The position numbers were made by a program, and so were the translations under genes. 31,195 nucleotides of DNA. Origin: a virus. How positions within the stretch are numbered: the stretch's first letter is position 1; every line of letters begins with the position of its first letter. The notes under the pieces are model-generated. The model was not told the origin of the DNA. It saw nothing but the letters and a program-made list of their open reading frames with translations, and ran no database searches. Shown one piece after another: positions 1 through 31,195 of this stretch. Where the stretch lies: IMG/VR virus record IMGVR_UViG_3300029728_000034. The stretch is one strand, 5' to 3'.

Positions 1-99
1 CAGGAGATATGATTTATGCTGGCAAGGCTTATAAATATCCTGAAACAGATAGAGTAGAGTTTTTATTAAATAATGTAGCTGAGAATTATCTATCTAATG
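1..99. repeat. Terminal direct repeat, copy 1 (identical to 31097..31195); circular-assembly overlap
   Basis: The 99 nt caggagatatgatttatgc...tatctaatg were read at both ends of the window and are identical. A single ORF runs through the junction in frame. Confidence 0.95.
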
Positions 100-914
100 G
101 TATTATATTTAATACTTCTAAAACTATAATATCTCCAGAATATTTGAAACCATTTACTTTGATAACATCTAGTGGAAATGAAAAACCAATTACTTTCTTC
201 AATGACTGGAGTTATAAAGATAGAGATCTAACTAAAGGCACTATGTTAAGTGATCCTATTACTGGTTTAGTTGATCCAAGGCAGTATTTAGTATCAAGTT
301 GAATTCTACCAACTGGAACTGGAGTTATTAATAGATTCTTTTATATAGATGGAGTACAATCTGCTATGGATATTAGTTTAAATTCTGGAATTAATGGATA
401 TACATATACAGAAGATTTAAGTAATAAATTATGGCCTTGTGGAAGCTATTTAATAGTAGGATTTGTAGAAGGTGGAAATATTAGTGATAGACAGATTAGA
501 TATGATATAGATACTACAGGTAAAGATTATGTGCTATATTATACTAATTCAGCAGGTGGATGAGATTCATTACTTGTTGAGGGTAATGTTAAAAAGAATG
601 ATGAGATTAAATCTGAAACATATACTCGTAAGGTATTAAATACATCACAAGAGTTTGCAAGAAATAAGTATTTGAATACTATAACTTCAAGCTGGATTCT
701 TTATACTGGTTATTTAAATGATATTCAAGCTTCTAAGATGTTTAATCTAATTGAGAGTACCAAAGTATATTTGCATAATCTTAAAGATAATACTATCACT
801 CCAGTATTGATTACAGATACAAATTGTGAATATAAAACTTATACTAATCAAGGTAAAAACAAGTTCTATTATACAATTAATGTAGAAGCTTCTCAAGATA
901 CTTATCGTAAATAA
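1..914 (+). CDS. 3' part of a wrap-around tail/baseplate structural protein (continues from 29830..31195; about 726 aa on the circle)
   Basis: Track ORFs 9..302, 366..563 and 672..914 share one frame and are separated only by TGA (300..302, 561..563). The frame matches 29830.. once the 31,096-bp period is applied. Stop is TAA at 912..914. The first full codon starts at 3. Confidence 0.8.
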
Positions 915-916
915 TT

Positions 917-3900
917 ATGAGAAAGAATATAAAACTATTTATTGCAAATAAAGAGGTTGACTGTAGTGAGGGAATTAGTCTTCCTATGACATATACTGTT
1001 GAGGATTTCCAAAACCCCACTATAGTCAAGAACTCGTTTAGTAAAACGATTTCTATACCTGGCACAAAGAATAATAATAAGATTTTTGGAGAGATTTATA
1101 AGTTAGATAGATTTCTCCATATAAAAGAAGGTAATTTCTCTGGAGTATATTTTGATCCTTCAAAACGAGTTGATTTTGGAATTTATAATAATGGCTATTT
1201 AGTTGAATCTGGATATATGCAATTAAATAGTATATCTATAAAACAAGCTATTATTACTTATAATATTACTTTATATGGAGGATTAGGAGATTTCTTTTAT
1301 GGTCTTAAATATAAAGAAGATGGTACTATTAGGACTCTTGCTGATTTACAATACTTTGTAACTGATGAAGATGGGAATACACTTCCTGCTGATACTGAAC
1401 TTAATTTTTATATTAACAAAGATTTTGTAAATACTTGTTTTGACTGAAGTAAAACGAATGAAGGAAGTCAAATATATGACTATTTAACATTCATTCCAGC
1501 ATATAATGGTTTATATGAAGATTTTGATAATGAAACTTGTTTAATAAATACTAATGAAAATAGTATATTTCCTACTAGTAAGACAGATTCAGGAGTTACA
1601 TATACACCTTATAATGGATATGGATTAGCTAAATTAAATAGAGCATATACAGAATGGGAGATGAGAGATCTTAGAAGTTATATGCAAAGGCCAGCTTTAA
1701 AATTGAGTAAGTTAATTGAAACTATCTGTAGAAAAGAGAATTCTGGATATGATGTAGTATTTGATCCTTCATTTTTTAATTGAAATAATCCGTATTGAAG
1801 TAAATCCTTTGTAGCTTTACCTTTATTATCTAATCTAGTAAGTGACGAAGAAGATGTAACAGAATCTGGCTTTTTAGTAGAAGATAGTAAATATAATTAT
1901 CAGGTAGGTATAAATAAAGGAGAATCTACATCAAGTCCTTTAAAATTATCCATTGCATCACCTGATATTGTTTACGATTCTGGAATAATTGATTTAAGTG
2001 AGGCTGGATTTAGAAAAAGCCTTTCTACAACTTTTTATTTTAAGTTAAAGTTTAATCGAACTGCAGGAAATGTTGGGGATAGATATTTTTTTGGATTTAG
2101 AAGGTATTTTAGCTCCTCTGCTCCTCCTTTTTATTCAGCATATAGAGGATACGCTGATGTTTGGCTAACAATTACTAATGAAGTAGATGATACTATTTAT
2201 ACTTCTGAAATACATAGATTTACAAATTCAGGAACCTACTCACATCCTATAGACAATGGGGTTAATCATTTTGGGTATTTTCAAAATAATGTATTTTATG
2301 ATACTTCTTCATTAACTAATGATTTTGTTATTAATATTACAAATTTTAAAATTCCAATTAATAAAATTAAAATTAAACTTAATGTTGTATGATCTACTGG
2401 AAATAGTGTTCGCCCTACTGGATTATTAAGTGAAGTAATAGAAAGAGGAGAGGATTACCAAGCTATTCCAAAAGGAGATCTTATAGTAGATCTTACTTCT
2501 CCCATTGAAATTACTACTTCTACAGAGGTACTTCAAAGTAATGCATTATTAACTAAAAAATTATTATTAAAAACAGAACAATCTCCTGCTGATTACTTAT
2601 TGAGTTATGCAAAACTATTTGGGTTATATTTTACAAAAGATATTGATAGTAAAACAATTAGAATATATACTAGAAATAATTTCTTTAAGAATATAATCTC
2701 TGATTGGAGTAAGAGAATAGATTATTCTAAAGATTTCAATGTAAATCCAATATTATTTGATAAGAAGTGATATAGAATGAGTTCTGAAGGTCCAGAAACT
2801 TATTTTTATAAAAAATACAATAAGGAATATTCTATATTATATGGTCAACAAAGATTAAATACTGGTTATAATTTTAATTCTGAAACAACTGAACTGTATA
2901 GTGATAATATATATGAAAATATAGTTTCTGCAAGATGGAGAAATAAATATTTTAGAAATTTTTACAATTCTTCTTCCCTTGTAGTTCCTGCATTTATGAA
3001 TGATAATATTACCTATACATTATTTAATAATAGCACTACTGAACTTAAGACTATAGATCAAGAGTTATACGGAGCTAATTTTATAGATCCCTCTAAAACC
3101 ACAGAATGATATAAAATCGCAGGTAATGATATATTTGCCAAAAATGTATTTTTCTCAATTGATGGTAATGAGGAATCTTTAGAGGATATCTCTCAATCCC
3201 TAGTATTCTTTAACGGTAATGTTCCTTTAACTGATGTAAAAGGAAATGAAGTAACATATTGAATTACAGATGATCTTACAGAAATGAACATATTAAATGA
3301 TCAGGAAATGTGTTATATATCTACTAAAAGTGAGAAAGATATTAGGGGGAATAAAATTGCTATAAAGAGAACTGTATTACCTCAATTTACAAGGTATACC
3401 GTTTCGTCCTCTAATGTTACTGCTTCTTGAGATTTTGGATTACCACAAGAGATTTATATTGATGATATAACTTATAATATCGGAAGTACTATTTATAGTA
3501 GATTCTGAAGTGAATTTTATAATGATCAATTTGATGTTAATACTAAAAAAGTTACCTGCTTTGTAAGATTGGGTGATTTAGATGTTAAGTATGATTTACT
3601 TAGACAGTTCTATTATTTTGAAGATTCTTACTGGATACTTAATAAGATTGATGCTTATGATATTAATTCAGATTCTACAGTTAGATGTGAATTTATTAAA
3701 GTTCAAGATATTAATAGTTATTTAGCTGGAATTCAAAATTTAGGTGAGTATATATCATTTGACGATTCAGATCCAGTTGTAGATTATAAAGCTGGGACTA
3801 AAAAGATTACAGTTACTTCTAATATTCCTTGAGAATTAGGATGATATAGTCCAAATGAAATTGTAAGCATTACACCTGAATCTGGGCAGCCTGGAGAAAC

Positions 3901-4276
3901 AGAATTGACAGTTACATATAATGAGAATACTACATATAATCAAAGGAGTTTCTATTTTAGTCTTTATAAACAAGGAAGTATAAATGGCCCTCAATGTATG
4001 TTTACTCAAACTCCAGACCCAAATAAAGCTATTCTTATTACAGGAAAGCTTCAAACTTCTACTGGAGGTATTCCTTCTGGCGTTAATCAGATTCTAACTG
4101 AAAATGATAATTTCTTAAATGTCACTTATATGAGAGATGATGGAAGTTATAGAATATATGCTCAAAATGGAGTTCAATTTTTATTTAGAGTATCTGACGG
4201 ACCAACAGGAACAGTTAAATATACAGAGAATTTAACACTAACAGAAGATACTGTTAAAAACGTAACTATAAACTAA
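917..4276 (+). CDS. Large tail-tip/baseplate (Tal-like) structural protein, 1119 aa, with a C-terminal BACON/Ig-like domain
   Basis: I translated the frame by hand from 917 to TAA 4274..4276. The only interruptions are 11 in-frame TGAs (1445, 1781, 1796, 2390, 2768, 3107, 3260, 3428, 3506, 3830, 3842). The C-terminus TSNIP-W-ELG-W-YSPNEIVSITPESGQPGETELTVTYNENTTYNQRSFYF fits the BACON pattern when TGA is Trp. Its position next to the tape-measure-like gene supports a tail role. Confidence 0.75.
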
Positions 4277-4277: not shown

Positions 4278-6611
4278 ATGGCTGAAGAAATTAAAAAAGT
4301 AATTAGTGTAGATACTAAAACCAGTTCAAAGTCGATCAAGCAGCTACGAGAAGAAGTAGCTGGCTTGACGGCTGAACTTGAAGATCTTGAGATTGGTAGT
4401 ACTGACTATACTAAAAAGCTTGAAGAACTTGTTAATGTTCAAAATAAGTTAGGTGTTGCTACAGAATCTATGCAAGGTAAAACTGTAAATGCAGTTAAGG
4501 CGTTTGACAGTATCAATCAAGTAGCAGGAGGTTTAGCTGGAGGAGTTTCAGCTGTTAGTGCAGCATTCACTTTATTTGGAAAAGATACAGAGAATCTTCA
4601 AAAAACTATGGTTAAATTGCAAGCAGCAATTGCTATAGTTCAGGGAATTGGAGGATTAAAAGGTTTAGGTGAAGGTATTCTTAATGGAGTAAAATCATTT
4701 AAAGCCTTATCTGTAGCAATGGGTGGTGCTACGGCTGCAACTGGAGGATTATCTGTAGCAATGGGTGTGCTACGGTCTGCAATTATATCTACAGGAATTG
4801 GAGCTTTAGTTGTAGCTCTTGGTATGTTAATAGATTTTGCAATTAAAGCAGCATCAGGAATTGATGATTTAAAAATTAGTATTTCTGGTTTAAAAGATAT
4901 AACTGATCAATGAGGAACAAGTTACGCCAGAGCTAATACTGAAATTGCAGGATTGGAGAGACAAAGAGAGAGAGATTTAGCTGCTGGTAAAAAAAGTGAA
5001 ATACAAATTTGGAAAGATTATGCTGAAGCATTAGGAGATTTAGATGCTGAATTATTTCATCAATTTGGCAGTGTAACTAAAGCATATTCTGACTCATTTA
5101 CTAATATACTTAAAAGTAATAAATACTTCAAAAAAGAATTTAAGAAATCTGGATATGAAACTTGGGAAGATTATTCCGAAGCAATACAATGAGGATTAAA
5201 GAATAGTTCTAATGAAGTTGATTTCTTTTTAAGTAAGTTAAATGAGGATCAAAAAGCGGCTTATGATGAAGCTTCTGGTATTTATAATACATATCTTGAG
5301 AAGCGAAATGATTTAATGCAAAAATCTGCTGAAGCTTATGAAAAAGTTAAGTTAATGGAGATTGCTGCAGAACGTAAGCAGAGAGAAGATGCTAAAGCCC
5401 AGTATCTAAAGAATATAGAAGATAGAAAGAAACATAATCAAGATCTGCTTAAAGTTATTAACGATTTCTATGAAGAAAATAGAAAACTTCTTTTAGATGA
5501 TGAAGCAAGAGAACTTGATGAATTAAATAGAAACTACCAGAATCAATTAGATGCACTTAAAGAAGCCTATAATCTCAAATTAATAACAGTTAAAGAATAT
5601 AATGAGAGATTAAAGCAGGTAAATGATGCATATAATAAAGAGTGACTAGATAATAATAATGAACGTTATAGAGAAGACTTAGAAAATAGATTATCTGCAT
5701 TACAAGAAATGCAAGATAGGGAATCTCAATTATTTGCAAATAAAGAGGCTGCATTATCTGCAGGTAAATCTGGAAGTTATGAAACTAGAGTTCAACAATT
5801 TGGTTCAACGGATTTTTATCAATCTGGAGAAGATGTTCAAAGACAATATCAAGATACATTAGCTTATAATGAACAGTTATATAATCTCACTAAAGATAGA
5901 ATTACAAGAGAGAATGAATTGATGTCTCAACAGCAAGCTATTTTAGATGAGCAATATAACAATAAGCTGATAACTGAACAAGAATATGCCAATCAATCTC
6001 AAGCAATTAAATTACAGCAAGAAGCTAATGATATAGCTTTATCAGAAGCAGCTAATGCAAGAGAAGAAGCAGATCTTCAAGCATTTAAAGATAGACAAGC
6101 TAAAAAGCAACAGGCTATTCAAGCTACTATGAATGTAGCTTCTTCTTTAAGTGGAGCTTTAGCTAATGTATTTAAACAAGAAGCTAGTGATGATTCAAAA
6201 TCAGAGAAGCAAAGAGAGAAATCATTTAAAGTTTATAAAGCATTAGCTACTACTCAAGCTATTATTGATACTATCAGTTCTGCCCAAGGTGCATATAAAG
6301 CTATGGTGGGTATTCCATTTGTAGGACCTATTCTTGCTCCAATTGCTGCTGCTACAGCTGTTATTGCTGGTATTGCTAATGTTAAGGCTATCCAAAATGA
6401 GCAGCTTCCTTCATCTGGAGGTTCTGGAAGTGATGCAGGAACTACTGCTCCTGCTGCTTTAAATACTGCTCCTGTAGAATATACTCGAAACTTACTTGGC
6501 AATAAAGAGACTGATGAATTGAATCAACCAGTTAAATGTTATGTAGTTGAGAGTGATATTACTACTGCTCAAACTAAAGTTGCAGTTACAGAATCAAATG
6601 CAAGTTTCTAA
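4278..6611 (+). CDS. Tape measure protein-like, 777 aa
   Basis: Four same-frame ORF fragments are joined by TGA at 4911, 5190 and 5643. The protein has long Q/E/K/A-rich coiled-coil stretches plus Gly/Ala-rich hydrophobic segments (GGLAGGVSAVSAAFTLFG, GIPFVGPILAPIAAATAVIAGIANV), as is typical of tape measure proteins. Stop is TAA. Confidence 0.7.
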
Positions 6612-6613
6612 AG

Positions 6614-6806: not shown

Positions 6807-7400
6807 ATGGAAAAAATGTATAATGATCTTCCATTATATCAAGCAATTATTGCTGATGATTGTGATGGAATAGAGTTCGTAGCATTGACCAGTAAACCTG
6901 CAACCCAAGTTAATTGGCTTGCTTTTGGGGAATCTCAGAAGTTCTCGATGGATGAAGAAAAACATATAGTTACTTCTTGTTTAATGGTATGTGATATACC
7001 TATATTTAGACGGGATAGTAAAAACGGAGAATATTATATTCAATATGATAAAGAAACTCTCCGTTTAATGGCTGAAAAAATGATGTATGATAAGAGAACT
7101 ACTGATGTAAATATTGAACATTTGGAAGATTCAGTAATTCCTGGAATAATTCTTCAAGAACTATATATTAAAGATATAGATAGAGGAATTAATCCAGTTG
7201 AATTTGCTGATTGTCCAGATGGTTCATTATTTGCTACTTATAAAGTAAATAATCCTGTTATATGGGATGCAATTAAAGCTGGCAAGTTTAAAGGGTTCTC
7301 TATTGAGGGATTGTTTACTTTAGAAAGACAATCTGATGAATATGAGGAACTTAAAGAGATTCAAAAAATGTTGAGAAAAATAAAAAGAGTTAAACATTAA
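6807..7400 (+). CDS. XkdF-like putative prohead protease / scaffold-associated protein
   Basis: The C-terminal motif VIWDAIKAGKFKGFSIEG resembles the XkdF-family signature W..vk.G...GfSigG. The gene lies directly upstream of scaffold-like and capsid genes. It has no TGA. Confidence 0.6.
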   Translation: MEKMYNDLPLYQAIIADDCDGIEFVALTSKPATQVNWLAFGESQKFSMDEEKHIVTSCLMVCDIPIFRRDSKNGEYYIQYDKETLRLMAEKMMYDKRTTDVNIEHLEDSVIPGIILQELYIKDIDRGINPVEFADCPDGSLFATYKVNNPVIWDAIKAGKFKGFSIEGLFTLERQSDEYEELKEIQKMLRKIKRVKH

Positions 7401-7406
7401 TTAATT

Positions 7407-8012
7407 ATGAGTAAATTCACAAAAATTAAACTTGAGTTAGCTAAGATGCTTGCAAAGTTCAGTGATGTTAAAACTGACAAGGCTGTGCTTACTTGGGATT
7501 CAGATGAGGATCTGAGAGAAGGTATGGATGTTTATGTAGCTGATGAAAATGGCGAATATGCACCTGCTGCTGATGGTGAGTATGTTACCGAAGATGGCAA
7601 AACGATTGTTGTTAAAGACGGTAAAGTAGAGTCCATTACTGATCCTAAAGCTGAAGTTGATCCTGAAGAGGGTATGAGAACTGTTGAGGTTGATGCTGCT
7701 TGTGGAGCTAAGAGAGTAAAAGCTGAGGAAGTTGCTGATCCTGCTGTTGAAACAGACGGTGTTAAAGAAACTGAGACTGATGCAATCGACGCTATTCATC
7801 GCGAAATTAATGAGCTCTATGATATTGTAGATAAGCTTGTTAAGAAAGTAGCAGAACTTGAAGGAAAGTCAGAAGCTACTGAAAAGACTGTAGAAAAAAT
7901 GAGTAAGATGAGTGCTGCTTTTTCAGCAGAGGAAACACTCGAAAATAAAACAACTGCTCCTATAAGTGGAATAGCAGAAATAGATAGAAAGCTTAAAAAC
8001 TTTATTGGTTAA
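7407..8012 (+). CDS. Scaffolding protein (acidic, coiled-coil)
   Basis: A 201-aa, highly acidic (D/E/K-rich), helix-rich protein located between the protease-like gene and the capsid gene. The call rests on position and composition. Confidence 0.55.
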   Translation: MSKFTKIKLELAKMLAKFSDVKTDKAVLTWDSDEDLREGMDVYVADENGEYAPAADGEYVTEDGKTIVVKDGKVESITDPKAEVDPEEGMRTVEVDAACGAKRVKAEEVADPAVETDGVKETETDAIDAIHREINELYDIVDKLVKKVAELEGKSEATEKTVEKMSKMSAAFSAEETLENKTTAPISGIAEIDRKLKNFIG

Positions 8013-8033
8013 TTTATAAAATTTTAAATAATT

Positions 8034-8933: not shown

Positions 8934-8973
8934 TTTCAATAGATTTTATTAACTTCTAAATGATATTGAAATT

Positions 8974-21657: not shown

Positions 21658-23379
21658 TTATTTATTAAATACAAATTTTTTATTAATAATTACATAACCT
21701 TCAGTTTGTTTACCATTTACTCTTTTCTGGCATTTTTTAACTTCATAATATTTATCAATTTCTGTTGCTTTTGGAGTAATAGTAATATCACTAATTTCAT
21801 AAGCTTCTTTAACAAACTTTTTAATATCAGCGTTAGAATACCACATTCCAAGAGTAATTGATTGATTTAACTTCTTAGCTGCTTTATTATCTGCACTTTT
21901 ATTTGATTTCTTTAATAGAGCATCTTTAATATCCGAAATGCAATATTTCAAGCTTGCCATCTTTTCGAATCCTAATTTACTAATAGCTTCTGGTAACCAA
22001 GGATATTTAATAATAGCATCATTTAAGAGTGGAGTATTCAGTTTAAATTTATTTTCCCATTCTGTTCTAACTTCTTTAATTAGTTCTTTAAATGGTTTAT
22101 TATCAGATTCAAAATCAATCTTAATAGAGTTGTCTTCACATTCTATTACTTTTTTAAATCCATTCTTTATATATTCTTTATTAAGATTCGTTCTAATAGA
22201 ATATAAACCTCTTGTCACTTTAAAGTTAAAAATATCTACCTTAGCCATATTTGGATCAAATGTAAATGTAAAATCATCATTTACTTGGATATAAGTATCA
22301 GATGTAAATTCTTTAAGTTTCTTTCTTGCAACTTCAGGCATTGCATTGTAAGCATCTACAGCAATCTTAGTTTCCTCAATATTCTGGATATTCTTCTTTT
22401 TAAAGTCTTCATAACTAATATCTGCATATCTTGTTGCTGAGTAAAGATGAGTTATCCAGTTTAAATATTTACTATTTCTAATTCTGCCAGCAATCTGTTG
22501 GATTGAAGTTGAGATGTCAAGAAGAGTTTGTGCTTTTTGAGCATCACTTACTACTACAATTCTTCCATTTTCATCATAAATATCAGAACCTTCAAATACT
22601 GTAGAAGTTAATAAATTTATTTTCTTAGGTTCATCTAATACTGTAGAATTATGAATTGATAATTTGGTTTTATTGTTTTTGGAATATATAACTCTGGTAT
22701 TCTCTTCTGTAAGTTTAGCTTTCTGAATAAGATTCTTTATAAAGTCTACAGAATTTACAAATATATAAACATTACCTTCGACTTGATTATTAAGAACAGC
22801 ATTAATTAATTTAATAGTTGAAGCTTCAACATTCTTACATTTAACGGCTTGTACCTTGGTTTCAATAACATCATCCCATTCTTGCTTTACTAATTCTAAA
22901 TCTTTTAATTCATCTAATACAAACTCTTCTTCAAGAGGAGTAGCAGTCATAAATGTAAAATCTTTAAATAATTCATAGTTCTCTAAAACAGGTTTAATAG
23001 CATCCTTTCTAAAGCTATACTGATTAAATAGTATATGATATTCATCTACTAATAAACTATATTCTTTAGTATTAACTGCAGAAATAACTTTTGGAAGTGA
23101 GTTATATGTAACAATAATTTTAGGACATTTAACACTCTCTACGTAATCTTTAATCTCTTTAATAGTAGCTCCAGCATAAACTCCAAATATCTTCTCAGTA
23201 CGTCTTTCATTTGGATATTGTTGAAGTTTATTTTCAACTAAGCTAGTAAATGGAACACAAATAACATAAGGCTTATTACATTCAATTGCCATTGAAGTTC
23301 CTCCACATCCAACTTTTCCTTTATCAAATAAACAGTTAGTTGGCAACTCATTAATCAAATTGTTTAAATATGTTTTCAT
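21658..23379 (-). CDS. Superfamily-2 (DEAD/DEAH-like) helicase, 573 aa; probable replication protein
   Basis: Motifs read in order: GKVGCGGTS (an atypical Walker A), LLVDEYH (DExH), MTATP, QQIAGRIRN (QxxGRxxR). It has 5 TGG codons and no TGA. Confidence 0.7.
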   Translation of the reverse strand: MKTYLNNLINELPTNCLFDKGKVGCGGTSMAIECNKPYVICVPFTSLVENKLQQYPNERRTEKIFGVYAGATIKEIKDYVESVKCPKIIVTYNSLPKVISAVNTKEYSLLVDEYHILFNQYSFRKDAIKPVLENYELFKDFTFMTATPLEEEFVLDELKDLELVKQEWDDVIETKVQAVKCKNVEASTIKLINAVLNNQVEGNVYIFVNSVDFIKNLIQKAKLTEENTRVIYSKNNKTKLSIHNSTVLDEPKKINLLTSTVFEGSDIYDENGRIVVVSDAQKAQTLLDISTSIQQIAGRIRNSKYLNWITHLYSATRYADISYEDFKKKNIQNIEETKIAVDAYNAMPEVARKKLKEFTSDTYIQVNDDFTFTFDPNMAKVDIFNFKVTRGLYSIRTNLNKEYIKNGFKKVIECEDNSIKIDFESDNKPFKELIKEVRTEWENKFKLNTPLLNDAIIKYPWLPEAISKLGFEKMASLKYCISDIKDALLKKSNKSADNKAAKKLNQSITLGMWYSNADIKKFVKEAYEISDITITPKATEIDKYYEVKKCQKRVNGKQTEGYVIINKKFVFNK

Positions 23380-23754: not shown

Positions 23755-24243
23755 TTAATAAATTTTTGGTCAAAATTCTAACTCACTAAAACTTAGTAGT
23801 TTATCTGATTCATATAAATCTAATGCTGATGGTTCCATATAGTAAATTTCAAAACATCTATCAAAAGAGCCTAAGTACTGTCTCTTTCCCTTAGATACAT
23901 TATATTTGTTTTCTAAAGTTTGAACTACTATATTTCCGCCTTTATTTTGATTATATCCATTATTTAGGGAATTATATTTAGATATATAATATATTTCAAG
24001 ATTATTTAACTTTACTATTAAATCTTCTAAATTATCATCTAATTCCTCTAATATTTCTCATTTAAACTTATCTATTCCGTATTTTCTAAAAGCGTTATAT
24101 AATGGATAATTATAAGCTTTATTACTTGGATCTGTACTTACAAACTTGTGTTTATTCCATCTTTTGTTAATATTAGTTCTAGTTTGACCAATATAACACT
24201 TATTATTTATTGTATTAGTTATTTTATAAATATACCCTTTCAT
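23755..24243 (-). CDS. GIY-YIG homing endonuclease 3, 162 aa
   Basis: MKGYIYKITNTINNKCYIGQT is a canonical GIY...YIG motif. I checked the reading codon by codon through TGA at 24058..24060 and 23770..23772 to TAA (plus-strand 23755..23757). Confidence 0.8.
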
Positions 24244-24393: not shown

Positions 24394-24633
24394 ATGAAAA
24401 CTATATTTAAATATGCAATTATTGCAACGATTATTTTAATGGGAATAGCTGGTATTAGAGTATATAATGCTTATGGAGACTACCAAACTAAAACATTTGA
24501 GCTTAGATTAGAACAGGCAGAACTTCAGCATAAATTAGACTCTGTAATGTGGCATAATCCTGGAAGTTCAGAAGTATCTGAATTATATGAACAGTATTGT
24601 GATGTAACCTTAAAAATTCATAATGTAAGATAA
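24394..24633 (+). CDS. Small membrane protein, 79 aa
   Basis: It has an N-terminal TM helix (FKYAIIATIILMGIAGI) and is the first gene downstream of the rightward promoter. Confidence 0.55.
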   Translation: MKTIFKYAIIATIILMGIAGIRVYNAYGDYQTKTFELRLEQAELQHKLDSVMWHNPGSSEVSELYEQYCDVTLKIHNVR

Positions 24634-25070
24634 TGAAAACAGATATAAGAAGTTTAGTCTTTATAAAGAATCTATTTAAAGATAAATATAATATAGATAT
24701 AGAATGATGTAAAGACGATTATTCCAGGTATGATGGAACATTTAATTGGAATGGAATTGATTATATAATTGAAGTTAAAAGAAGAAGATTCAATTCTAAT
24801 AAATATCCAACCACTATTATTAATAGGGATAAATTTGATATGCTATCAAGAAATAATTCTATATTAGTAATAATATTTGATGATGGAGTATATATATTTA
24901 AAGATATAAAACAAGCCTTTATAAAGGATTCTATGAAATATGGTTGTTCTACAACAGATTTTGGAGGAACTTATGGCTATTCATTAAAAACAGAGTTGTC
25001 TTTAAAGAAAGCCATTAAGATAGATGTAAATACAGAATTTAGTAATTATATAGCAAATGATAGCCTATAA
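24633..25070 (+). CDS. Possible PD-(D/E)XK-fold nuclease, 145 aa
   Basis: ATG 24633 overlaps the upstream TAA. It has one sense TGA (24705). YDGTFNWNGIDYIIEVKRR fits the D...(D/E)xK pattern, but only weakly. Confidence 0.4.
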
Positions 25071-25551
25071 AAGAATACTTAATTTTGAAAACTACCAAAT
25101 TGGAACTGATGGCTCAATATGAAGTTTAAGAGCATCAGTTCCAAAGAGGTTAAAACCTCAAGTAAAAACTAATGGGTACTTTACAGTAACATTATATAAT
25201 AAAAATTTGAAAAAGAAGTGTTATATACATAGATTAGTAGCTGAAACTTTTATATCTAATCCGAATAACTATCCTTGTATAAATCATAAGGATGAAAATA
25301 AATCAAATAATAATGTAAGTAATTTAGAATGGTGTACTTATAATTATAATAATAATTATGGAACTCATAATCTGCGAGCTGGATATAGTCATAAGAAACC
25401 AATACTGCAATTACTAAATGGAATAGTTATTAAAAGATGGGATTCAGCAATAGATGCTGAGAGAGAACTAAATATACAATCTAGAAATATTGTAAAGGTT
25501 CTTAAAGGGCAGCGAAAAACAGCAGGAGGATATATGTGAACATATGAGTAA
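25057..25551 (+). CDS. HNH homing endonuclease (NUMOD4-like N-terminus, HNH core, C-terminal DNA-binding domain), 164 aa
   Basis: MIAYKRILNFENYQIGTDGSI-W-SL...NGYFTVTLYNK..KKCYIHRLVAETFISNPNNYPCINHKDENKSNNNVSNLEW...TAGGYM-W-TYE. TGAs are at 25120 and 25537. Confidence 0.85.
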
Positions 25552-25852
25552 TAACGAAATTGTAGAAAAGTACTATCCATTTATTATGGAACTTAAGCAA
25601 AAATTTGGTGCAGATGATGACTGTGTTCAAATGATTTTTGTAGAAATACTAGAGTATTCAAATCCAAAATTAAATCAGCTTGATAGCAAAAATGAATTGA
25701 AATTTTGGATTACAAGATTATTTAAGAATTATTGGTTTAGTAAAACAAGTAGATATTACTATACCTATAAGAAATATTATGAGATTGTTAAAGAACCACT
25801 TGAACAACAAAATGACGAATTGGAGGATTGATTAAATGAAACGGAAGATTAA
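25544..25852 (+). CDS. Sigma-70 family (ECF-like) region-2-only protein, 102 aa
   Basis: ADDDCVQMIFVEILEY...LKFWITRLFKNYWFSKTSR follows the ECF region-2 pattern (AeDlvQevF...WL.rIa.N...d..R). It has one TGA (25829) and stops at TAA 25850..25852. Confidence 0.5.
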
Positions 25853-26081
25853 TATTGACGATTTACTTACTGAGTATGAAATAGACTATAGTATGTTTAC
25901 AAATATGGATGATAGACTATTAAATATATATCCAAAATGACTTGAGCTTAATAAGGCAGATAAGACAGTAATCATATTATATGCTGAATATCACAGTTAT
26001 AGAGAAGTGGGAAGAATATTAGGAATTAGTCATACTACAATTCAAAGATTTATTAAACAAATAAGAGAGAGATTATGTTAG
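25836..26081 (+). CDS. Sigma-70 region-4-like HTH protein, 81 aa
   Basis: ADKTVIILYAEYHSYREVGRILGISHTTIQRFIKQIRERL matches the region-4 HTH pattern. It is a separate ORF in a different frame from the region-2 ORF, with a 17-nt overlap. It has one TGA (25938) and a TAG stop. Confidence 0.55.
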
Positions 26082-26404
26082 AATTATTTATAATAGCAGT
26101 AATAATAGTCTTTATAATTGATTTATCTGGGGCTTTGGATAGTTTTAAACATAGTATTTGAAAAAGACTATTTAAAGGTATGCCTTATAAAGAAGATTGA
26201 AGACTAAAACCTTTAGATTGCAGTTTATGTATGACTTGGTGAATTGGATTAATATATATTCTTATTACAAGTCAATTTTCAATTTTAATGGTTGGATATA
26301 TTGCACTATTAGCATTTATGACTCCAATTATTAAAGATATTATGATATTATTAAAAGATGCATCTACTAAGCTGATAGATGTTATATACAAACTTATTGA
26401 TTAA
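26075..26404 (+). CDS. Small integral membrane protein with a CxxC motif, 109 aa
   Basis: I translated it by hand. It has 3 sense TGAs, a PLDCSLCMTW-W motif and hydrophobic segments at both ends. Confidence 0.5.
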
Positions 26405-26829: not shown

Positions 26830-27190
26830 ATATCTTTATGCAGCAAGATTATTTAATAAAGGGTGGTCCAGAAATAAAGTAAGTGAGGAACTTCAAACTA
26901 AATATGGAGTTGGGCAAACTACTGCTGCTAAATATATTAGAGAAGCTTATAAGATTATTGCAGATAAAAACGATAATCTTATAAAGAATTTAAGACATAT
27001 ACAATTAACAAGATTGGAAACATTGTTGGATATTGCTATTAGTAAAAATGATGTAAGATCTGCTACTGAGGTTATTAAAACAATAAATTCTATGTTTGGA
27101 TTAAATCAACCAGAAATTCAAGTTAATATTCAAAATAATGAATGCCAATTTAAATTTGGAGACCCTATTATAAATGACAAGGATATATAA
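26738..27190 (+). CDS. terS: Terminase small subunit candidate, 150 aa
   Basis: It has a basic N-terminus (GRPKKEE), an HTH-like segment (WSRNKVSEELQTKYGVGQTTAAKYIREAY) and a helical C-terminus. It lies directly upstream of terL and overlaps it. Confidence 0.55.
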   Translation: MKVKNQELPKKIGRPKKEEVKEDQIDEQKTKYLYAARLFNKGWSRNKVSEELQTKYGVGQTTAAKYIREAYKIIADKNDNLIKNLRHIQLTRLETLLDIAISKNDVRSATEVIKTINSMFGLNQPEIQVNIQNNECQFKFGDPIINDKDI

Positions 27191-28421
27191 AGGATATAGG
27201 CCATTTATGTACCAATATAAGGTTCATATAGCTATGGCAGATGCTTATAGATCTGGAAGGATATTTACAATTAAAGCTAAACGACAAGTAGGTAAATCAT
27301 TCTTAGCTGAAAATGAATTATTACGATTTGCAATTAACTATCCAAAAACAGTCAATTGTATAGTAGAACCTACTCTTGGGCAATCAAGAAAAGTGTTTAA
27401 AGAAATAGTTAATGCTATAGCTGAAGCAGATATTCTTAAACGTAAGAATGAAACTTTGCTTGAATTAGAGTTTAATAATGGCAGTTCTATATTATTTAGA
27501 TCTGGAGAACAAATGGATTCGTTACGAGGATTCTCTGTAAGTGGATTACTTGTATTAGATGAGGCTGCTTACTTAAAAGATGAAGTATTTGAAATTATTA
27601 AACCTACTACTGATGTGTGGTCTGCTCCAATATTAATTATTAGTACTCCAAGGTTCCGAGAGGGTTTCTTTTATGACTGCTTTACTAAAGGGTTAGATCC
27701 GAAATATGACAAGTTCTATAAATCATTTGATTGAGCTTTAGAAGATACATCTATGCTTTTAGATAAAGAGAAGTTAGAGATGTATCGACTTACAACCTCA
27801 AAAAATAAATTTAGAACCGAATACTTAGGGGAATTTGCAGATGATGATGGATGTTTATTTAATAATATAGCTAATTGCATAATTGAGAAAAAACCAGATT
27901 ATCAGAGTCTTTATATAGGAATAGACTGGGCTACTGGGAGTGGTAAAGACTATACTTGTGTTACTGCTTTAAATGAATCTGGACAAATGGTCTTTATAAA
28001 GTATTTTAACGATAAAACTCCAACAGAGCAAGTTGATTTATTAACAAATATACTAACTGAGTATCAAGGATTTATAAAGATTGTGCAAGTTGAACAAAAC
28101 TCAATTGGTAGTGTCTTCTATGATATGTTAGTTCGGAAGAATCCGAAAATCAGGATTATACGATTCTTAACTACTAATAAGAGTAAGGCAGATATAGTTA
28201 ATAAGCTTCAAGCTGCTTTGGAGAATGAAAAGATAGGATTATTAAAAGATGATAAACTTTTAAATGAGTTAAGACTATATGAAGCTTCATATAATCCAAA
28301 AACTGGAAATGTTAGTTATAATGCTCCATCTGGATTTAATGATGATACAGTAATTTCATTAATGCTAGCCTATGACTCATTAAATACAAACAAAGGACAT
28401 TATAATATTAAAATTAAATAG
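27174..28421 (+). CDS. terL: Terminase large subunit, 415 aa
   Basis: Walker A is KAKRQVGKS and Walker B is GLLVLDEAAY. A C-terminal nuclease-like region includes GIDWATGSGKDYT and FNDDTVISL. The two ORF fragments are joined by TGA 27732. Confidence 0.85.
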
Positions 28422-28422: not shown

Positions 28423-29082
28423 ATGAATGTAGCAACTAAATGGGAAGAAGTATCTTTAAAGAAATTCCAAGCTTTAAATACATTTATTATGAGTGATGTA
28501 AAAATGACAGATTTAGATAGGAGTATCGAGATCTACTCATTACTTACAGATAACCCAGATGAAGCAATGGATGCTTTATTAAATATGACCGTAGATCAAT
28601 TATCTGCAGAACTTAGTAAGATTCATTTTATTGTAAATAAATATAAATCCAAAGTTCCAGAAACTGAGTATGATATTGATGGTAATAAATATACAGTTCA
28701 ATTAAATCTCAGAAATATGACTGCTGCTCAGTATATTGATTTTCAGAACTTTTATAAAGATTATGAAAAGAATCAGAAGTATATATTCTTATGCTTTTTA
28801 ATTCCTAAAGGAAAGAAGTATAATGAGGGTTATGATGTAATGGAACTAGCAGAAGATTTATATGATAAGATTCCAATTACTATTGTTACTGATGTAATGG
28901 TTTTTTTTTGCAAATTATTAGAGAGCTTAACCATAGCTACCCTAATCTCTTCAATGCGGGAGATGAAGAAATTGATGAAAAAGGAGAAAGATCCAGTAAA
29001 GAAACATCAATTACGGAAGAGGATAGTTCAAGCGAGACAAACTCTGAATTTAGTCAAAAATGGAACTGGATTTGTTGAATAG
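28423..29082 (+). CDS. Tail assembly chaperone candidate (G-like product), 219 aa
   Basis: It contains a T9 slippery run, and a 140-nt coding-like stretch in the -1 frame lies beyond its TAG stop. The call rests mainly on this frameshift architecture. Confidence 0.45.
   Translation: MNVATKWEEVSLKKFQALNTFIMSDVKMTDLDRSIEIYSLLTDNPDEAMDALLNMTVDQLSAELSKIHFIVNKYKSKVPETEYDIDGNKYTVQLNLRNMTAAQYIDFQNFYKDYEKNQKYIFLCFLIPKGKKYNEGYDVMELAEDLYDKIPITIVTDVMVFFCKLLESLTIATLISSMREMKKLMKKEKDPVKKHQLRKRIVQARQTLNLVKNGTGFVE
28901..28909 (+). other. T9 homopolymer; candidate -1 ribosomal frameshift (U_UUU_UUU) or transcriptional slippage site
   Basis: gta atg gtT TTT TTT tgc in the zero frame is a perfect X_XXY_YYZ heptamer. 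Confidence 0.5.
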
Positions 29083-29225
29083 ACAGAGTTAGTGAAGTAA
29101 CAAGGTTAAACTGGCATCAAGTATATGATATGCAGATTCAAGAGTTTTTGAATATTATTTGCTACTTACTTGATAAAGGGAAAGAAGAAAAAAGACAAAT
29201 AGATCTTTGAAAAGCTAAACACTAA
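28908..29225 (+). CDS. -1 frame extension (GT-like fusion C-terminus), about 105 codons
   Basis: The -1 frame is open from the T9 run to TAA 29223..29225. It reads LQIIRELNHSYPNLFNAGDEEIDEKGERSSKETSITEEDSSSETNSEFSQKWNWIC-W-IDRVSEVTRLNWHQVYDMQIQEFLNIICYLLDKGKEEKRQIDL-W-KAKH. There is no independent start codon for the last 140 nt. Confidence 0.45.
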
Positions 29226-29277: not shown

Positions 29278-29280
29278 CTT

Positions 29281-29305: not shown

Positions 29306-29347
29306 GTGTTTAGATACTCAATATGAGAATGATATATTTTAGTAAAA

Positions 29348-29827
29348 ATGGCAAATCAAGTTTTGGATTTTCCCAATTTAGAAGCTGTCTTAAAACAATA
29401 TGGAGAACAATTACTTTCTATATATAGGCAGAAATTACTACAAACTGGTTCAGATGATACGGGAACTCTTGGTAATACACTTAATTATATAGTTGAAGAT
29501 CAAGATGAAGTATATGAAGTTAGTTTGCAAATACAAGATTATTGGAAGTATGTTGAGGATGGCAGAAATGCAGGAAAGTTTCCTCCTATTAGTGATATAA
29601 AAAGATGGATACAAACTAAACCTGTATTACCTCGTATATATAACGGATCACTTCCAACTATTGATCAATTAGCATATTTAATAGCAAGAAAGATTTCCAA
29701 AAGAGGAATTGAAGGCAAACATATATTAGAGGAATCATTAACTGAATTAGATGCTTATATGTTATTAGATGATGCAATTACAAAAGATTTAGAAACACAA
29801 GTTGATAATGTATTTAAAAACTTTTAA
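29348..29827 (+). CDS. HK97 gp10-like neck / tail-completion protein, 159 aa
   Basis: DTGTLGNTLNYIVEDQDEVYEVSLQIQDYWKYVEDGRNAG resembles the gp10-family pattern (TG.L..s.......v.v.....Y..yVE.G). Confidence 0.5.
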   Translation: MANQVLDFPNLEAVLKQYGEQLLSIYRQKLLQTGSDDTGTLGNTLNYIVEDQDEVYEVSLQIQDYWKYVEDGRNAGKFPPISDIKRWIQTKPVLPRIYNGSLPTIDQLAYLIARKISKRGIEGKHILEESLTELDAYMLLDDAITKDLETQVDNVFKNF

Positions 29828-29829
29828 AA

Positions 29830-31195
29830 ATGGCATTTATACCAAGTAAATTAGGAATATATAATGCATCAAGGAGTTTTCCTGTTAAATGGAATAATCC
29901 TGGATGGGGAATTACTGGAGAATATGATTATTGGACTTGGGGAGATGATTATACTGAAGAAGGGCCTTTAAATGTAACTATACAGGATCCAAGTAAAGAA
30001 GGATGTACAATACAATTTTTATCTCCTACAACAATAACTACTGATTCTTCTACTGTATTTCATTTTTATCCTAGAGGTATTACTACTGCTTTATTAGGGG
30101 AAGATTTACCAATTAATTTACATAGTAAAGCTCCTGGATATTATCCTGCTAATGGCACCATTAAAGTACCAAATACTGGTGGAGAATATACAGTAGAGTA
30201 TATATTAAATAGATCAGATATTATTAAATGAGATGCAGCAGTTGTTAATGCTACAGCTTTAGTTAATATGGAAGTTCTGGATTGGGATTCCTGCTCTATT
30301 AAGTTTAAAGTTACAGTAAGAGCTAATACTCAATGAAATACTGATTTAACTGCAACTATCCAATTAGGGGCTTATTATGATACTAATAAATTTATTAGTT
30401 ATAGTTATGGCTTTAAGATTGAAAAAAGCAATACTCCAGAAGATTTAAAGTTAGTAGTAACTCCTTCATCTGGAACTTATGGAGCAGCTGCTTTTGTTAC
30501 TGAAGAATTTCATTTAAGTACAACTAAAGCAGAAGAAACAATTACCTCATTTAATGTTACTTGTTCTCAAGCCAGTAATATTAAAAAGGATATTGTTGAT
30601 AACTATTTTGTATTAACTGTTCCAGAGAATAAAACTACTAATAATTTGGAGTTTAGTGCAATGGTTACTGCAACAACTTCTGGAGGTTATACTCTTGAAG
30701 CTACAGTTCCAATTAAACAAGCTGCAACATCTTTAATGATTCCTAATACTAATTATGAAGTAAGTTGAACTGCATCTACATTAAATATAATGGGTACAGG
30801 ATCAAACAACTTAGATGATGTTGTATTTAGTATTCCTGTAGGTTGGATTAGTGGTCAGAAGTTCTCTGTGAATCCTCAAGGTGTAGCAACTATTAGTTTG
30901 AACATTGCAGAAAATTCAGGTTTATCTTCTAGACAAGCAACTATTGGAGTATCTGTTATAAAGAATAGTTTAAGTATTATTAATTTATCTATTAATATTA
31001 CACAATCTGTTAAATCTGATATATCTCCTATTTGGAAAGATTATGTTTGGGAAGAAATTATCAGTTCTGATTTTATTGAATATCATCTAGATTATGCAGG
31101 AGATATGATTTATGCTGGCAAGGCTTATAAATATCCTGAAACAGATAGAGTAGAGTTTTTATTAAATAATGTAGCTGAGAATTATCTATCTAATG
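29830..31195 (+). CDS. 5' part of the wrap-around tail/baseplate structural protein with Ig/BACON-like repeats (continues at 1..914)
   Basis: I translated it codon by codon to the window end. The only interruptions are TGA at 30229, 30334 and 30766. The segment EVS-W-TASTLNIMGT...VGWISGQKFSVNPQGVATISLNIAENSGLSSRQATIGV is BACON-like. Confidence 0.8.
31097..31195. repeat. Terminal direct repeat, copy 2 (identical to 1..99)
   Basis: Direct comparison of the two ends of the window. Confidence 0.95.

What the first reader, a model, noticed from the sequence alone, without database searches (positions are those of the whole stretch)
1..31195. Genome-wide reassignment of TGA (opal) to Trp
Under the standard code the large genes break into same-frame fragments. 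For example, 917..4276 is cut into 12 pieces, the tape-measure-like gene into 4, and terL, portal and all three LRR proteins into 2 or more. Reading TGA as a sense codon fuses every fragment set into one full-length protein. I counted 48 sense TGAs in 19 CDS, plus 2 in the frameshift extension. Every CDS I called ends in TAA or TAG, so TGA is never needed as a stop. Two lines of evidence point to Trp rather than Gly. First, the paralogs align directly: the shared C-terminal K-N-W uses TGG at 10529..10531 and TGA at 14061..14063 and 15931..15933. Second, TGAs fall on positions that are Trp in the relevant families. These are the two Trp of the BACON pattern (3830, 3842, 30766), P-W-NKG of NUMOD3 (18003), KYG-W-DNF in GIY-YIG (17724), G-[FY]-x-W-[RKT]-Y at the end of the endonuclease DNA-binding domains (21140, 25537), and W-I-H before the last His of the M15 peptidase (20520). 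Stop-codon recoding in phages is already known, but this is a compact 31-kb example with internal paralog evidence.
Basis: partly seen in the sequence, partly recalled or inferred. Interest (0 to 1): 0.8.

Follow-up and report, generated by a model that had tools for sequence, protein, structure and literature searches.

The report
Gut phage reads TGA as tryptophan
This is a complete 31-kb phage genome, probably from the human gut, in which the stop codon TGA encodes tryptophan in about half of the genes; this kind of recoding is already known, but neither this phage nor its relatives carries the tRNA that would read TGA, so how it is decoded is open.

Summary
The window is a complete circular 31,096-bp phage genome with an exact 99-nt terminal repeat. 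It has 47 in-frame TGAs in 18 of 34 genes, plus 2 in a conserved -1 frameshift extension. All 34 stops are TAA or TAG.

- **TGA means Trp.** In about 40 close relatives, window TGAs align to TGA (668) or TGG (247) and to Gly codons only twice. In TGA-free relatives, TGA lies opposite W in 45 of 122 cases and opposite G once. That matches TGG, which lies opposite W in 169 of 389.
- **Not uniform.** Across relatives, the capsid genes and the minus-strand helicase-like gene almost never use TGA. The major capsid gene has 0 TGA against 153 TGG.
- **No suppressor tRNA.** None was found in the window or in any fetched locus of its relatives.
- **Host.** There are no Shine-Dalgarno sites. The endolysin's nearest cellular homologues are in Bacteroides and Phocaeicola. 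A 2.26-kb fibre segment is shared at 91-100% identity with roughly 168-kb TGA-recoded crAss-like phages. This points to a standard-code Bacteroidales host.

So the decoder is probably supplied in trans or by an unknown mechanism. Stop-codon recoding in gut phages is known, so this is a new member of a known kind and of moderate interest.

The parts
1..99 (.). Terminal direct repeat, identical to 31097-31195. It marks a circularly closed assembly; the genome unit is 31,096 bp.
   Evidence: 100% identity over 99 nt
29830..31195 (+). 5' part of a 726-aa virion or tail gene that continues through the junction into 1..914. It has 5 sense TGAs in all (30229, 30334, 30766, 300, 561) and a weak BACON-like stretch.
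   Evidence: (position 561 = W in 8/8 TGA-free relatives)
1..914 (+). 3' part of the same 726-aa gene. It ends in TAA.
917..4276 (+). 1119-aa tail gene with 11 sense TGAs (1445, 1781, 1796, 2390, 2768, 3107, 3260, 3428, 3506, 3830, 3842). The C-terminus gives a sub-threshold BACON_2 match.
4278..6611 (+). 777-aa tape-measure-like gene with 3 sense TGAs (4911, 5190, 5643).
6807..9498 (+). Head module: XkdF-type protease, scaffold-like gene, major capsid gene 8034-8933, and gene 8974-9498. It has 0 TGA and 10 TGG in the window. Across unique relatives the module has 7 TGA against 332 TGG.
9590..10543 (+). LRR_5-like protein, paralogue 1. It has a sense TGA at 9980; the C-terminal K-N-W uses TGG at 10529.
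10766..12961 (+). 731-aa tail fibre with a Phage_tail_C end and no Trp codon at all. In some relatives a 2.26-kb segment of this gene is shared with large crAss-like phages.
12963..14102 (+). LRR-like paralogue 2 with sense TGAs at 13176, 14061 (K-N-W) and 14094.
14980..15951 (+). LRR-like paralogue 3 with sense TGAs at 15241 and 15931 (K-N-W). Relatives use TGA for all Trp codons in this gene (36 TGA, 0 TGG).
16487..17578 (+). Portal gene with a sense TGA at 16595. TGA-free relatives have W or Y there in 17 of 17 cases.
17559..18221 (+). GIY-YIG / NUMOD3 / NUMOD1 homing-endonuclease-like gene with TGAs at 17724 and 18003.
19315..19968 (+). 217-aa protein of unknown function just upstream of the endolysin. 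Its position and hydrophobic N-terminal stretch suggest a holin. It has 4 sense TGAs (19354, 19579, 19750, 19915).
   Evidence: holin reading is inference from gene position and the sequence read
20133..20585 (+). Peptidase_M15_3 endolysin. The TGA at 20520 lies in the W-x-H motif.
20585..21154 (+). NUMOD1 endonuclease-like gene with TGAs at 20900, 20957 and 21140.
21658..23379 (-). 573-aa helicase-like gene on the minus strand. It has 0 TGA and 5 TGG in the window, and 1 TGA against 79 TGG across relatives.
23755..24240 (-). GIY-YIG-like ORF on the minus strand with 2 TGAs (24060, 23772). Its start codon is uncertain.
24633..26404 (+). Five small genes, each with 1-3 sense TGAs: 24633-25070, the HNH/NUMOD4 gene 25057-25551, 25544-25852, the HTH-like gene 25836-26081, and the membrane protein gene 26075-26404.
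27174..28421 (+). Large terminase gene with a sense TGA at 27732. Standard-code relatives L036 and L037 have W there.
28423..29225 (+). 219-aa gene (to 29082) plus a conserved -1 frame extension to 29225 that holds TGAs at 29076 and 29208.

Best explanation
**What is shown.**
- The window is the complete circular genome (31,096 bp, 29.6% GC) of an uncultured tailed phage.
- UGA is translated as tryptophan at 47 positions in 18 of 34 genes, and at 2 more in a -1 frameshift extension.
- Termination uses only UAA and UAG.
- The recoding is shared by a clade of about 40 close relatives in IMG/VR. A syntenic relative with 66% capsid identity has no TGA at all in its genes over the 20.7 kb fetched, either as sense or as stop.
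- TGA use is graded. It makes up roughly half or more of the Trp codons in tail, receptor-binding, lysis, endonuclease and small regulatory genes (31% in the 726-aa virion gene). It is almost absent from the capsid-module genes and from the minus-strand helicase-like gene.
- Neither the window nor any fetched locus of its relatives encodes a tRNA.

**What is inferred.**
- The host is a Bacteroidales bacterium that uses the standard code.
- The recoding therefore belongs to the phage, as in other recoded gut phages.
- An efficient UGA decoder must come from outside the phage's own tRNA repertoire. It could be a UCA suppressor tRNA resident in the host cell. It could come from co-infecting TGA-recoded crAss-like phages, with which this clade exchanges fibre genes. 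It could also be a phage protein that disables release factor 2, so that host Trp-tRNA reads UGA.
- Avoidance of TGA in the most abundantly made proteins fits a decoder that is limiting or only conditionally available.
For: **TGA = Trp.** See, with the numbers given under the first-reader verdict.

**Complete genome.** Exact 99-nt terminal repeat, and one gene reads through the junction.

**No tRNA.**
- ARAGORN finds none at default or relaxed settings.
- Rfam at E <= 1 finds no tRNA.
- ARAGORN finds none in L001-L099.
- The conserved non-coding stretches fold as terminator-type hairpins, not cloverleaves.

**Graded use of TGA** (TGA against TGG over unique relatives).
- Low: major capsid 0/153, scaffold 0/24, gene 8974 1/92, protease 6/63, portal 14/117, helicase-like 1/79.
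- High: 1119-aa tail gene 208/200, gene 19315 81/57, TerL 44/58, gene 14980 36/0.
- In the window, head module plus helicase-like gene give 0/15 against 47/51 for the rest (Fisher p = 1.6e-4).

**Host signals.**
- SD-like motifs lie upstream of 4 of 32 starts, against a background of 13%.
- The endolysin is 47-53% identical over its full length to chromosomal genes of Bacteroides and Phocaeicola species.
- BACON_2 and BACON are the top Pfam matches for two tail-protein segments, though both are sub-threshold.
- A 2,256-nt fibre segment holding 8-9 sense TGAs is 91-100% identical between small-phage contigs (including a 30.8-kb contig) and 85-170-kb TGA-recoded phages.
- The TerL of those large phages matches mainly crAss-like and other Bacteroidota phages in the phage collection.

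**Literature.**
- Known bacterial UGA-to-Trp lineages are Mycoplasmatales, Entomoplasmatales and insect endosymbionts, from a screen of more than 250,000 genomes (PMC8629427).
Against: - The host was not identified directly. There is no CRISPR spacer match and no prophage; the scan of species genomes with TerL found nothing.
- All host signals are indirect. Absence of SD sites also occurs in some Mollicutes.
- TGA occurs in genes of every module, including small genes that may be early. A phage that must first install a decoder should not do that.
- I did not find a suppressor tRNA in the roughly 31 kb of the large crAss-like phages that I could read. A published table lists several opal-recoded Zeta crAss-like phages without one (PMC12386605). 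That would also fit a host that reads UGA natively.
- No candidate RF2-targeting or tRNA-modifying protein was identified; most small proteins have no family match.
Confidence: 0.6

Rival explanations
1. The phage simply mirrors its host. The host is a bacterium that natively reads UGA as Trp (code 4: no RF2, with tRNA-Trp UCA), so no phage tRNA is needed. The large phages that share fibre genes infect the same code-4 host.
For: - No tRNA in the window or in any fetched locus of its relatives.
- Low GC of 29.6%.
- All stops are TAA or TAG.
- TGA occurs in all modules, including small non-structural genes.
- The large phages use TGA densely throughout the 31 kb examined, and no tRNA was seen there.
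- Several opal-recoded Zeta crAss-like phages lack Sup-TCA (PMC12386605, Table 1).
- 22 of 27 code-4 phages in INPHARED are Mycoplasma or Spiroplasma viruses that share the host code (PMC11210395).
Against: - The known free-living code-4 bacteria, Mycoplasmatales and Entomoplasmatales (PMC8629427), lack peptidoglycan (established knowledge). This phage has an M15 peptidoglycan peptidase.
- The closest cellular homologues of that endolysin are in Bacteroides and Phocaeicola.
- The strong, lineage-wide avoidance of TGA in capsid, portal and helicase-like genes is not expected where UGA is a normal, efficiently read Trp codon in an AT-rich genome.
- The large partner phages are crAss-like by TerL. 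Cultured members of that group infect Bacteroidota.
Confidence: 0.22
2. TGA encodes glycine (code 25), as in phages of Absconditabacteria and Gracilibacteria.
For: Code-25 phages exist in human-associated samples (10.1101/2021.08.26.457843; PMC10746230). One TerL relative (L038) has Gly opposite the TGA at 27732.
Against: - Gly codons lie opposite window TGA in 2 of about 1,090 aligned cells in close relatives.
- Gly lies opposite TGA in 1 of 122 cells in TGA-free relatives, against 45 W.
- W is invariant opposite the endolysin TGA.
Confidence: 0.01
3. The in-frame TGAs are real stops or artefacts: pseudogenes, sequencing errors, or low-level readthrough that yields mostly truncated products.
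For: Under the standard code, gene callers do emit truncated products. The protein database holds 127-129-aa endolysin entries cut at the TGA.
Against: - The same positions are held as TGA or TGG across dozens of independently assembled relatives.
- The protein sequence downstream of each TGA is conserved in frame, down to 40% identity relatives.
- Eleven stops in one essential 1119-aa tail gene could not be bypassed by leaky readthrough.
- The TAG-sense control gives no gain in ORF coverage.
Confidence: 0.01

Closest known systems
TGA-to-Trp recoded crAss-like phages (Zeta group, proposed Echekviridae, e.g. phage Lera; PMC7886860, PMC12386605)
   Same: - Same reassignment (opal to Trp), inferred in the same way.
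- Human-gut setting and low GC.
- Rich in homing endonucleases.
- The major capsid gene of one Zeta example is reported free of recoded stops.
- Some members also lack a detectable Sup-TCA tRNA.
- The clade studied here shares a 2.26-kb fibre segment at 91-100% identity with roughly 168-kb TGA-recoded crAss-like phages.
   Different: - The genome is five to six times smaller (31 kb against 145-192 kb).
- It has no tRNA genes at all, and no phage RNA polymerase or replication block.
- Its TerL is not crAss-like. The best matches in the phage collection are Thermus, Meiothermus and haloarchaeal viruses at under 30% identity.
- I did not place the large partner phages within the Zeta group; I only showed that their TerL is crAss-like.
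Small recoded gut phages Garnet, Amethyst and Topaz (22-34 kb; Borges et al., 10.1101/2021.08.26.457843)
   Same: - Small genomes with a reassigned stop codon.
- Standard-code Bacteroidota or Firmicutes hosts are predicted.
- Structural and lysis genes carry the recoded codon.
- One or a few genes are kept free of it.
   Different: - The curated representatives and prophages of those clades are TAG-to-Gln recoded and temperate, and their integrase is the gene kept stop-free.
- This phage is TGA-to-Trp recoded and no integrase was found.
- Its codon-free genes are the capsid module and a helicase-like gene, not only an early or lysogeny gene.
- Relatedness to those clades was not tested, because their sequences are not in the tools.
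Phages of Mycoplasma and Spiroplasma (native code-4 hosts; PMC11210395)
   Same: TGA = Trp, no need for a suppressor tRNA, low GC.
   Different: Those hosts lack peptidoglycan (established knowledge). This phage carries an M15 peptidoglycan peptidase with Bacteroides/Phocaeicola affinities and avoids TGA in its most highly expressed genes.
Agate and Jade TGA-recoded phages (127-200 kb; 10.1101/2021.08.26.457843)
   Same: Code 4. TGA accumulates in structural and lysis genes. Close relatives with and without recoding exist.
   Different: Those are large genomes. Some Jade genomes carry a code-change operon (Sup-tRNA, TrpRS, RF1). Nothing of that kind is present here.

Membership tests
Stop-codon-recoded phage, genetic code 4 (TGA = Trp) | Conserved genes are interrupted by in-frame TGA and become full length when TGA is read as sense | tested here: met
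   ORF coverage rises from 0.767 to 0.92 and the longest ORF from 742 to 1121 aa. The TAG-sense control gives 0.789 and 742 aa. TerL, portal, endolysin and endonuclease genes are restored.
Stop-codon-recoded phage, genetic code 4 (TGA = Trp) | TGA positions align with Trp in homologues | tested here: met
   TGA aligns to TGG 247 times and to Gly codons twice in close relatives. In TGA-free relatives, W is opposite TGA in 45/122 and G in 1/122. W is opposite the endolysin TGA in 16/16 and 9/9 homologues.
Stop-codon-recoded phage, genetic code 4 (TGA = Trp) | TGA is not used for termination | tested here: met
   Stops are 30 TAA, 4 TAG and 0 TGA.
Stop-codon-recoded phage, genetic code 4 (TGA = Trp) | Phage-encoded suppressor tRNA (anticodon UCA). 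This is frequent in such phages but not universal. | tested here: not met
   No tRNA by ARAGORN at default or relaxed settings, none by Rfam, and none in the relatives' loci L001-L099.
Recoding as a late-gene switch (Borges et al. model) | The recoded codon is concentrated in late structural and lysis genes and absent from early genes | tested here: inconclusive
   Tail, fibre and lysis genes are TGA-rich and the helicase-like gene is TGA-free, which fits the model. But the capsid, scaffold and protease genes are also TGA-free, and small non-structural genes at 24633-26404 carry TGA. Expression timing is unknown.
Code 25 phage (TGA = Gly; Absconditabacteria or Gracilibacteria hosts) | TGA positions align with Gly | tested here: not met
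Phage of a native code-4 host (Mycoplasmatales or Entomoplasmatales) | The host lacks a cell wall and reads UGA natively, and phage genes show affinities to that host group | tested here: not met
   An M15 peptidoglycan peptidase is present. Its nearest cellular homologues are in Bacteroides and Phocaeicola. The host itself was not identified, so this rests on indirect evidence.
Crassvirales (crAss-like phages) | crAss-type TerL, portal and capsid genes, and a genome of about 100-190 kb with a phage RNA polymerase block | tested here: not met
   The window TerL matches Thermus, Meiothermus and haloarchaeal viruses at under 30% identity, and none of the 25 best rows listed is crAss-like. The capsid gene has no match in the phage collection. 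The genome is 31 kb. Only a fibre segment is shared with crAss-like phages.
BACON domain proteins (Pfam PF13004, PF19190) | Match to the Pfam model at or above the gathering score | tested here: not met
   These are the best Pfam matches for two segments, but they score 17-19 bits against a cut-off of 25 (E 1e-3 to 4e-3). The TGA at 30766 lies outside the matched stretch.

The most novel reading that the evidence does not exclude
This tRNA-less phage clade may read UGA as Trp inside a standard-code Bacteroidales cell by a route not yet demonstrated for any phage. One possibility is that it exploits the suppressor environment set up by co-infecting TGA-recoded crAss-like phages, with which it swaps TGA-containing fibre genes. 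The other is that one of its roughly 15 uncharacterised small proteins disables release factor 2, so that host tRNA-Trp reads UGA while RF1 terminates at its UAA and UAG stops.
Probability: 0.3. Interest if true: 0.85.

Novelty: new member of a known kind. Interest (0 to 1): 0.42.

Why it matters
TGA-to-Trp recoding in gut phages is established, so the reassignment itself adds little. What this genome offers is a minimal, complete case. It has 34 genes and no tRNA, and dozens of natural variants show that selection keeps TGA out of the capsid and helicase-like genes. It also exchanges genes directly with large phages that use the same code. This narrows an open question: how do recoded phages without a suppressor tRNA get their stop codon read in a standard-code host? 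The answer must lie either in a short list of phage proteins or in a trans-supplied decoder. The genome also shows that sharing a code lets TGA-containing gene modules pass between unrelated phages. On the practical side, public protein sets hold truncated versions of these proteins, called under code 11.

Tried and rejected
- **Close matches in the GenBank phage collection.** Megablast of 25 kb of the window found nothing. The capsid protein found nothing. TerL found only distant matches.
- **Prophage or host search.** TerL against one genome per GTDB species found no relative.
- **The 148-kb IMG/VR contig as a possible prophage in host DNA.** I walked it in three steps. It is an assembly join of a large crAss-like phage and the small phage through a 2,256-nt repeat, identical at contig positions 116,530-118,785 and 146,376-148,631. 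It contains no host DNA.
- **Hidden tRNA.** Relaxed ARAGORN gave only nonsense calls with kilobase-long introns. Rfam gave two chance-level matches, snoR43 and sraA. The conserved non-coding stretches are hairpin terminators.
- **Suppressor tRNA in the large partner phages.** About 31 kb around their TerL and fibre genes holds no tRNA.
- **Bacteroidetes-type promoter motif TAnnTTTG.** It is not enriched: 41 found against 45.8 expected. I dropped it as host evidence.
- **My first impression of strong Shine-Dalgarno sites.** One AAGGAGG turned out to be part of a hairpin. A systematic count shows SD motifs at background level.
- **PHROGs on ten uncharacterised proteins** gave no functional assignment.
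- **PDB sequence search with the endolysin** aligned only residues 43-94, so it said nothing about the TGA position.

Full report
**1. What the window is.** The window has 29.6% GC. Its first 99 bases are repeated exactly at its end (1-99 = 31097-31195). The ORF that starts at 29830 reads through this junction into 9..914. Pfam identifies these phage genes:
- large terminase (27174-28421)
- portal (16487-17578)
- XkdF-type protease (6807-7400)
- Peptidase_M15_3 endolysin (20133-20585)
- a fibre with a Phage_tail_C end (10766-12961)
- GIY-YIG/NUMOD and HNH/NUMOD endonuclease-like genes

Nearly all genes are on the + strand. Two are not: a 573-aa helicase-like gene (21658-23379) and a GIY-YIG-like ORF (23755-24240).

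**2.
- Under the standard code, ORFs of at least 100 aa cover 0.767 of the sequence and the longest is 742 aa.
- With TGA as sense, coverage is 0.92 and the longest ORF is 1121 aa.
- Making TAG sense instead gives 0.789 and 742 aa.
- I count 47 in-frame TGAs and 66 TGGs in 34 genes, 18 of which contain TGA.
- All 34 stops are TAA (30) or TAG (4).
- Counting TGA as Trp brings Trp to 1.17% of codons, against 0.68% with TGG alone.
- The two extra TGAs in a 'frameshift extension' are also real. The -1 frame peptide that extends gene 28423-29082 to 29225 is conserved as protein down to relatives of about 40% identity, and the TGA at 29208 aligns with W there.

**3. TGA means Trp.** A terminase query found 38 related loci in IMG/VR, 35 of them at 80-100% identity. 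A capsid query found 58 more.
- *Close relatives, aligned codon by codon.* Window TGAs align to TGA 668 times, TGG 247, TAT 39, Phe codons 16, and Gly codons 2. TGA in relatives lies opposite window TGG 177 times. This flipping between TGA and TGG at fixed positions is what synonymous codons do.
- *An unbiased test.* I masked every TGA as X and aligned the window proteins to 20 TGA-free relatives translated with the standard code. TGA lies opposite W in 45 of 122 cells, Y in 11, F in 5 and G in 1. TGG gives W in 169 of 389.
- *The endolysin.* W lies opposite the TGA at 20520 in all 16 aligned database homologues and in all nine Bacteroides/Phocaeicola chromosomal homologues.
- *The weak point.* The BACON argument does not hold up well. 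BACON_2 and BACON are the best Pfam matches for two segments, but they fall below the gathering score, and the TGA at 30766 lies outside the matched stretch.

**4. The recoding is not uniform.** I counted TGA against TGG per gene family over unique sequences of relatives.
- Low TGA: major capsid 0/153, scaffold 0/24, gene 8974 1/92, protease 6/63, portal 14/117, helicase-like gene 1/79.
- High TGA: 1119-aa tail gene 208/200, gene 19315 81/57, TerL 44/58, gene 14980 36/0.
- In the window alone, head module plus helicase-like gene give 0/15 against 47/51 elsewhere (Fisher p = 1.6e-4).

TGA and TGG interchange freely in the other genes at the same divergence. Their absence from the capsid and helicase-like genes therefore reflects selection, not lack of time. 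This fits a decoder that is limiting or not always present. It does not fit a simple 'late genes only' switch, because capsid genes are late.

**5. No decoder in the genome.**
- ARAGORN finds no tRNA in the window. Relaxed settings give only nonsense calls.
- Rfam at E <= 1 finds no tRNA.
- No tRNA occurs in any fetched locus of the relatives.
- The conserved intergenic stretches fold as terminator-type hairpins.

The published surveys report the same gap for many code-4 phages. Only 35% of them (10.1101/2021.08.26.457843) or 15% (PMC11210395) have a detectable Sup-TCA tRNA. Yutin et al. raised a host-encoded or highly divergent suppressor as the possible explanation (PMC7886860).

**6. Evolutionary setting.** Relatives down to 72% capsid identity are recoded. 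L079, at 66% capsid identity, is syntenic and has 28% GC. Its 20 called genes over the 20.7 kb fetched have no in-frame TGA and no TGA stop (17 TAA, 3 TAG), so it is compatible with either code. More distant relatives (GC 35-62%) show no sign of TGA recoding.

**7. Host clues, all indirect.**
- SD-like motifs precede 4 of 32 starts, against a background of 13%. This is typical of Bacteroidota, though it also occurs in some Mollicutes.
- The endolysin's closest cellular homologues are 47-53% identical over the full length. They lie in Bacteroides and Phocaeicola genomes next to contractile-injection-system genes and Mfa-like fimbrillin genes.
- The 148-kb IMG/VR contig that looked like a prophage is an assembly join. 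Its last 2,256 nt are identical to an internal stretch of a fibre gene.
- That stretch occurs at 91-99% identity in genuine 85-170-kb phages, and also inside ordinary small-phage contigs such as a 30.8-kb one. It carries 8-9 sense TGAs.
- The large phages are TGA-recoded. Their 772-aa TerL matches mainly crAss-like and other Bacteroidota phages.

So the small clade and large crAss-like phages exchange receptor-binding modules, which implies a shared host and a shared code. The bacteria known to read UGA as Trp are Mycoplasmatales, Entomoplasmatales and insect endosymbionts (PMC8629427). None is a plausible host for a phage with a peptidoglycan peptidase of Bacteroides/Phocaeicola affinity.

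**8. Most likely mechanism.** Shown: UGA is read as Trp, termination relies on UAA and UAG only, and the phage has no tRNA of its own. Inferred: the host is a standard-code Bacteroidales. If so, efficient decoding needs one of three things, because eleven TGAs in one essential gene rule out leaky readthrough:
- a UCA suppressor tRNA supplied in trans, by an element resident in the host
- a UCA suppressor tRNA supplied by the co-infecting recoded crAss-like phages
- inactivation of RF2 by a phage protein, so that host tRNA-Trp reads UGA while RF1 serves the phage's UAA and UAG stops

I could not discriminate between these. The main rival is a native code-4 host, at about 0.2. It is supported by the lack of tRNA in every genome examined, including the parts of the large phages that I could read. 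It is opposed by the endolysin, by the TGA avoidance pattern, and by the known distribution of code 4.

**9. Comparison and novelty.** TGA-to-Trp recoding is documented in crAss-like phages (PMC7886860, PMC12386605), in Jade, Sapphire and Agate phages, in small clades of gut phages (10.1101/2021.08.26.457843), and in gut virus catalogues (PMC11210395). In the MGV catalogue, 0.5% of non-crAss viruses are recoded (PMC8241571). Some public gene calls for this clade are already full length (150-aa endolysin entries), alongside versions truncated at the TGA. The finding is therefore a new member of a known kind. Its added value is threefold: a complete, tRNA-less, 34-gene genome; selection against TGA in the capsid and helicase-like genes; and exchange of a TGA-bearing module with unrelated large phages.

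**10. Origin.** The origin of the window in the human gut is my inference. It rests on the numbering of the IMG/VR record (consistent with the MGV catalogue) and on 'human feces' as the source of the related GenBank records. I did not verify it.

Noticed in passing
window 1-99 and 31097-31195: Exact 99-nt terminal repeat. The window is a complete circular genome of 31,096 bp, and the first and last ORFs are one 726-aa gene.
   Followed up: yes
window 6687-6727, 15956-16015, 23410-23469, 29228-29287: Four copies of an intergenic motif ending in GAGTAAAAAACTTGACA. Three are followed at once by a short GC-rich hairpin. They sit at the boundaries of gene blocks and are conserved in relatives. They could be promoter or regulatory elements, but they do not fit a sigma-70 spacing.
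   Followed up: partly
window 9507-9545 and 6613-6695: A strong intrinsic terminator lies just after the head genes (z = -6.2). A long hairpin follows the tape-measure-like gene (z = -5.1). Both are highly conserved among relatives.
   Followed up: partly
window 6807-9498 and 21658-23379 (-): The capsid-module genes and the helicase-like gene avoid TGA across about 35 relatives (major capsid 0 TGA against 153 TGG). Neighbouring genes use TGA for about half of their Trp codons.
   Followed up: yes
window 28423-29225: A -1 frame extension of the 219-aa gene is conserved as protein down to relatives of about 40% identity. This looks like a programmed frameshift of the tail-chaperone type. I did not define the slippery site.
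   Followed up: partly
window 10766-12961; loci L068 13811-16066, L073 13780-16035, L100 16323-18578: In some relatives the fibre gene carries a 2.26-kb segment that is 91-100% identical to a fibre gene of 85-170-kb TGA-recoded crAss-like phages. IMG/VR contig IMGVR_UViG_3300045988_175865 (148,631 nt) is an assembly chimera of the two phages through this repeat.
   Followed up: yes
window 10766-12961: The 731-aa fibre protein contains no Trp codon at all, neither TGG nor TGA.
   Followed up: no
window 17559-18221, 20585-21154, 23755-24240 (-), 25057-25551: Four homing-endonuclease-like genes (GIY-YIG/NUMOD and HNH/NUMOD) in 31 kb. All contain TGA. Their presence and sequence vary between relatives, and similar genes occur in the large crAss-like phages.
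   Followed up: partly
locus L079 (IMGVR_UViG_3300029905_000019): This syntenic relative (66% capsid identity, 28% GC) uses TGA neither as sense nor as stop in its 20 called genes. It may represent a TGA-free intermediate state.
   Followed up: partly
window, all gene starts: There are no Shine-Dalgarno motifs (4 of 32 starts, at background level). Most starts follow an A/T-rich stretch, often directly after the TAA of the preceding gene.
   Followed up: yes
window 20133-20585; proteins P0019, P0024-P0033 and others: The public protein collection holds 127-129-aa versions of the endolysin cut at the TGA, some named 'putative chitinase' or 'YcbK', alongside full 150-aa versions. These are annotation artefacts of calling genes under code 11.
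   Followed up: partly
window 25544-26081: Two adjacent small genes each contain a TGA. The second has a C-terminal helix-turn-helix-like stretch, which by eye resembles sigma-factor region 4. They might form a split regulator. No family match supports this.
   Followed up: no
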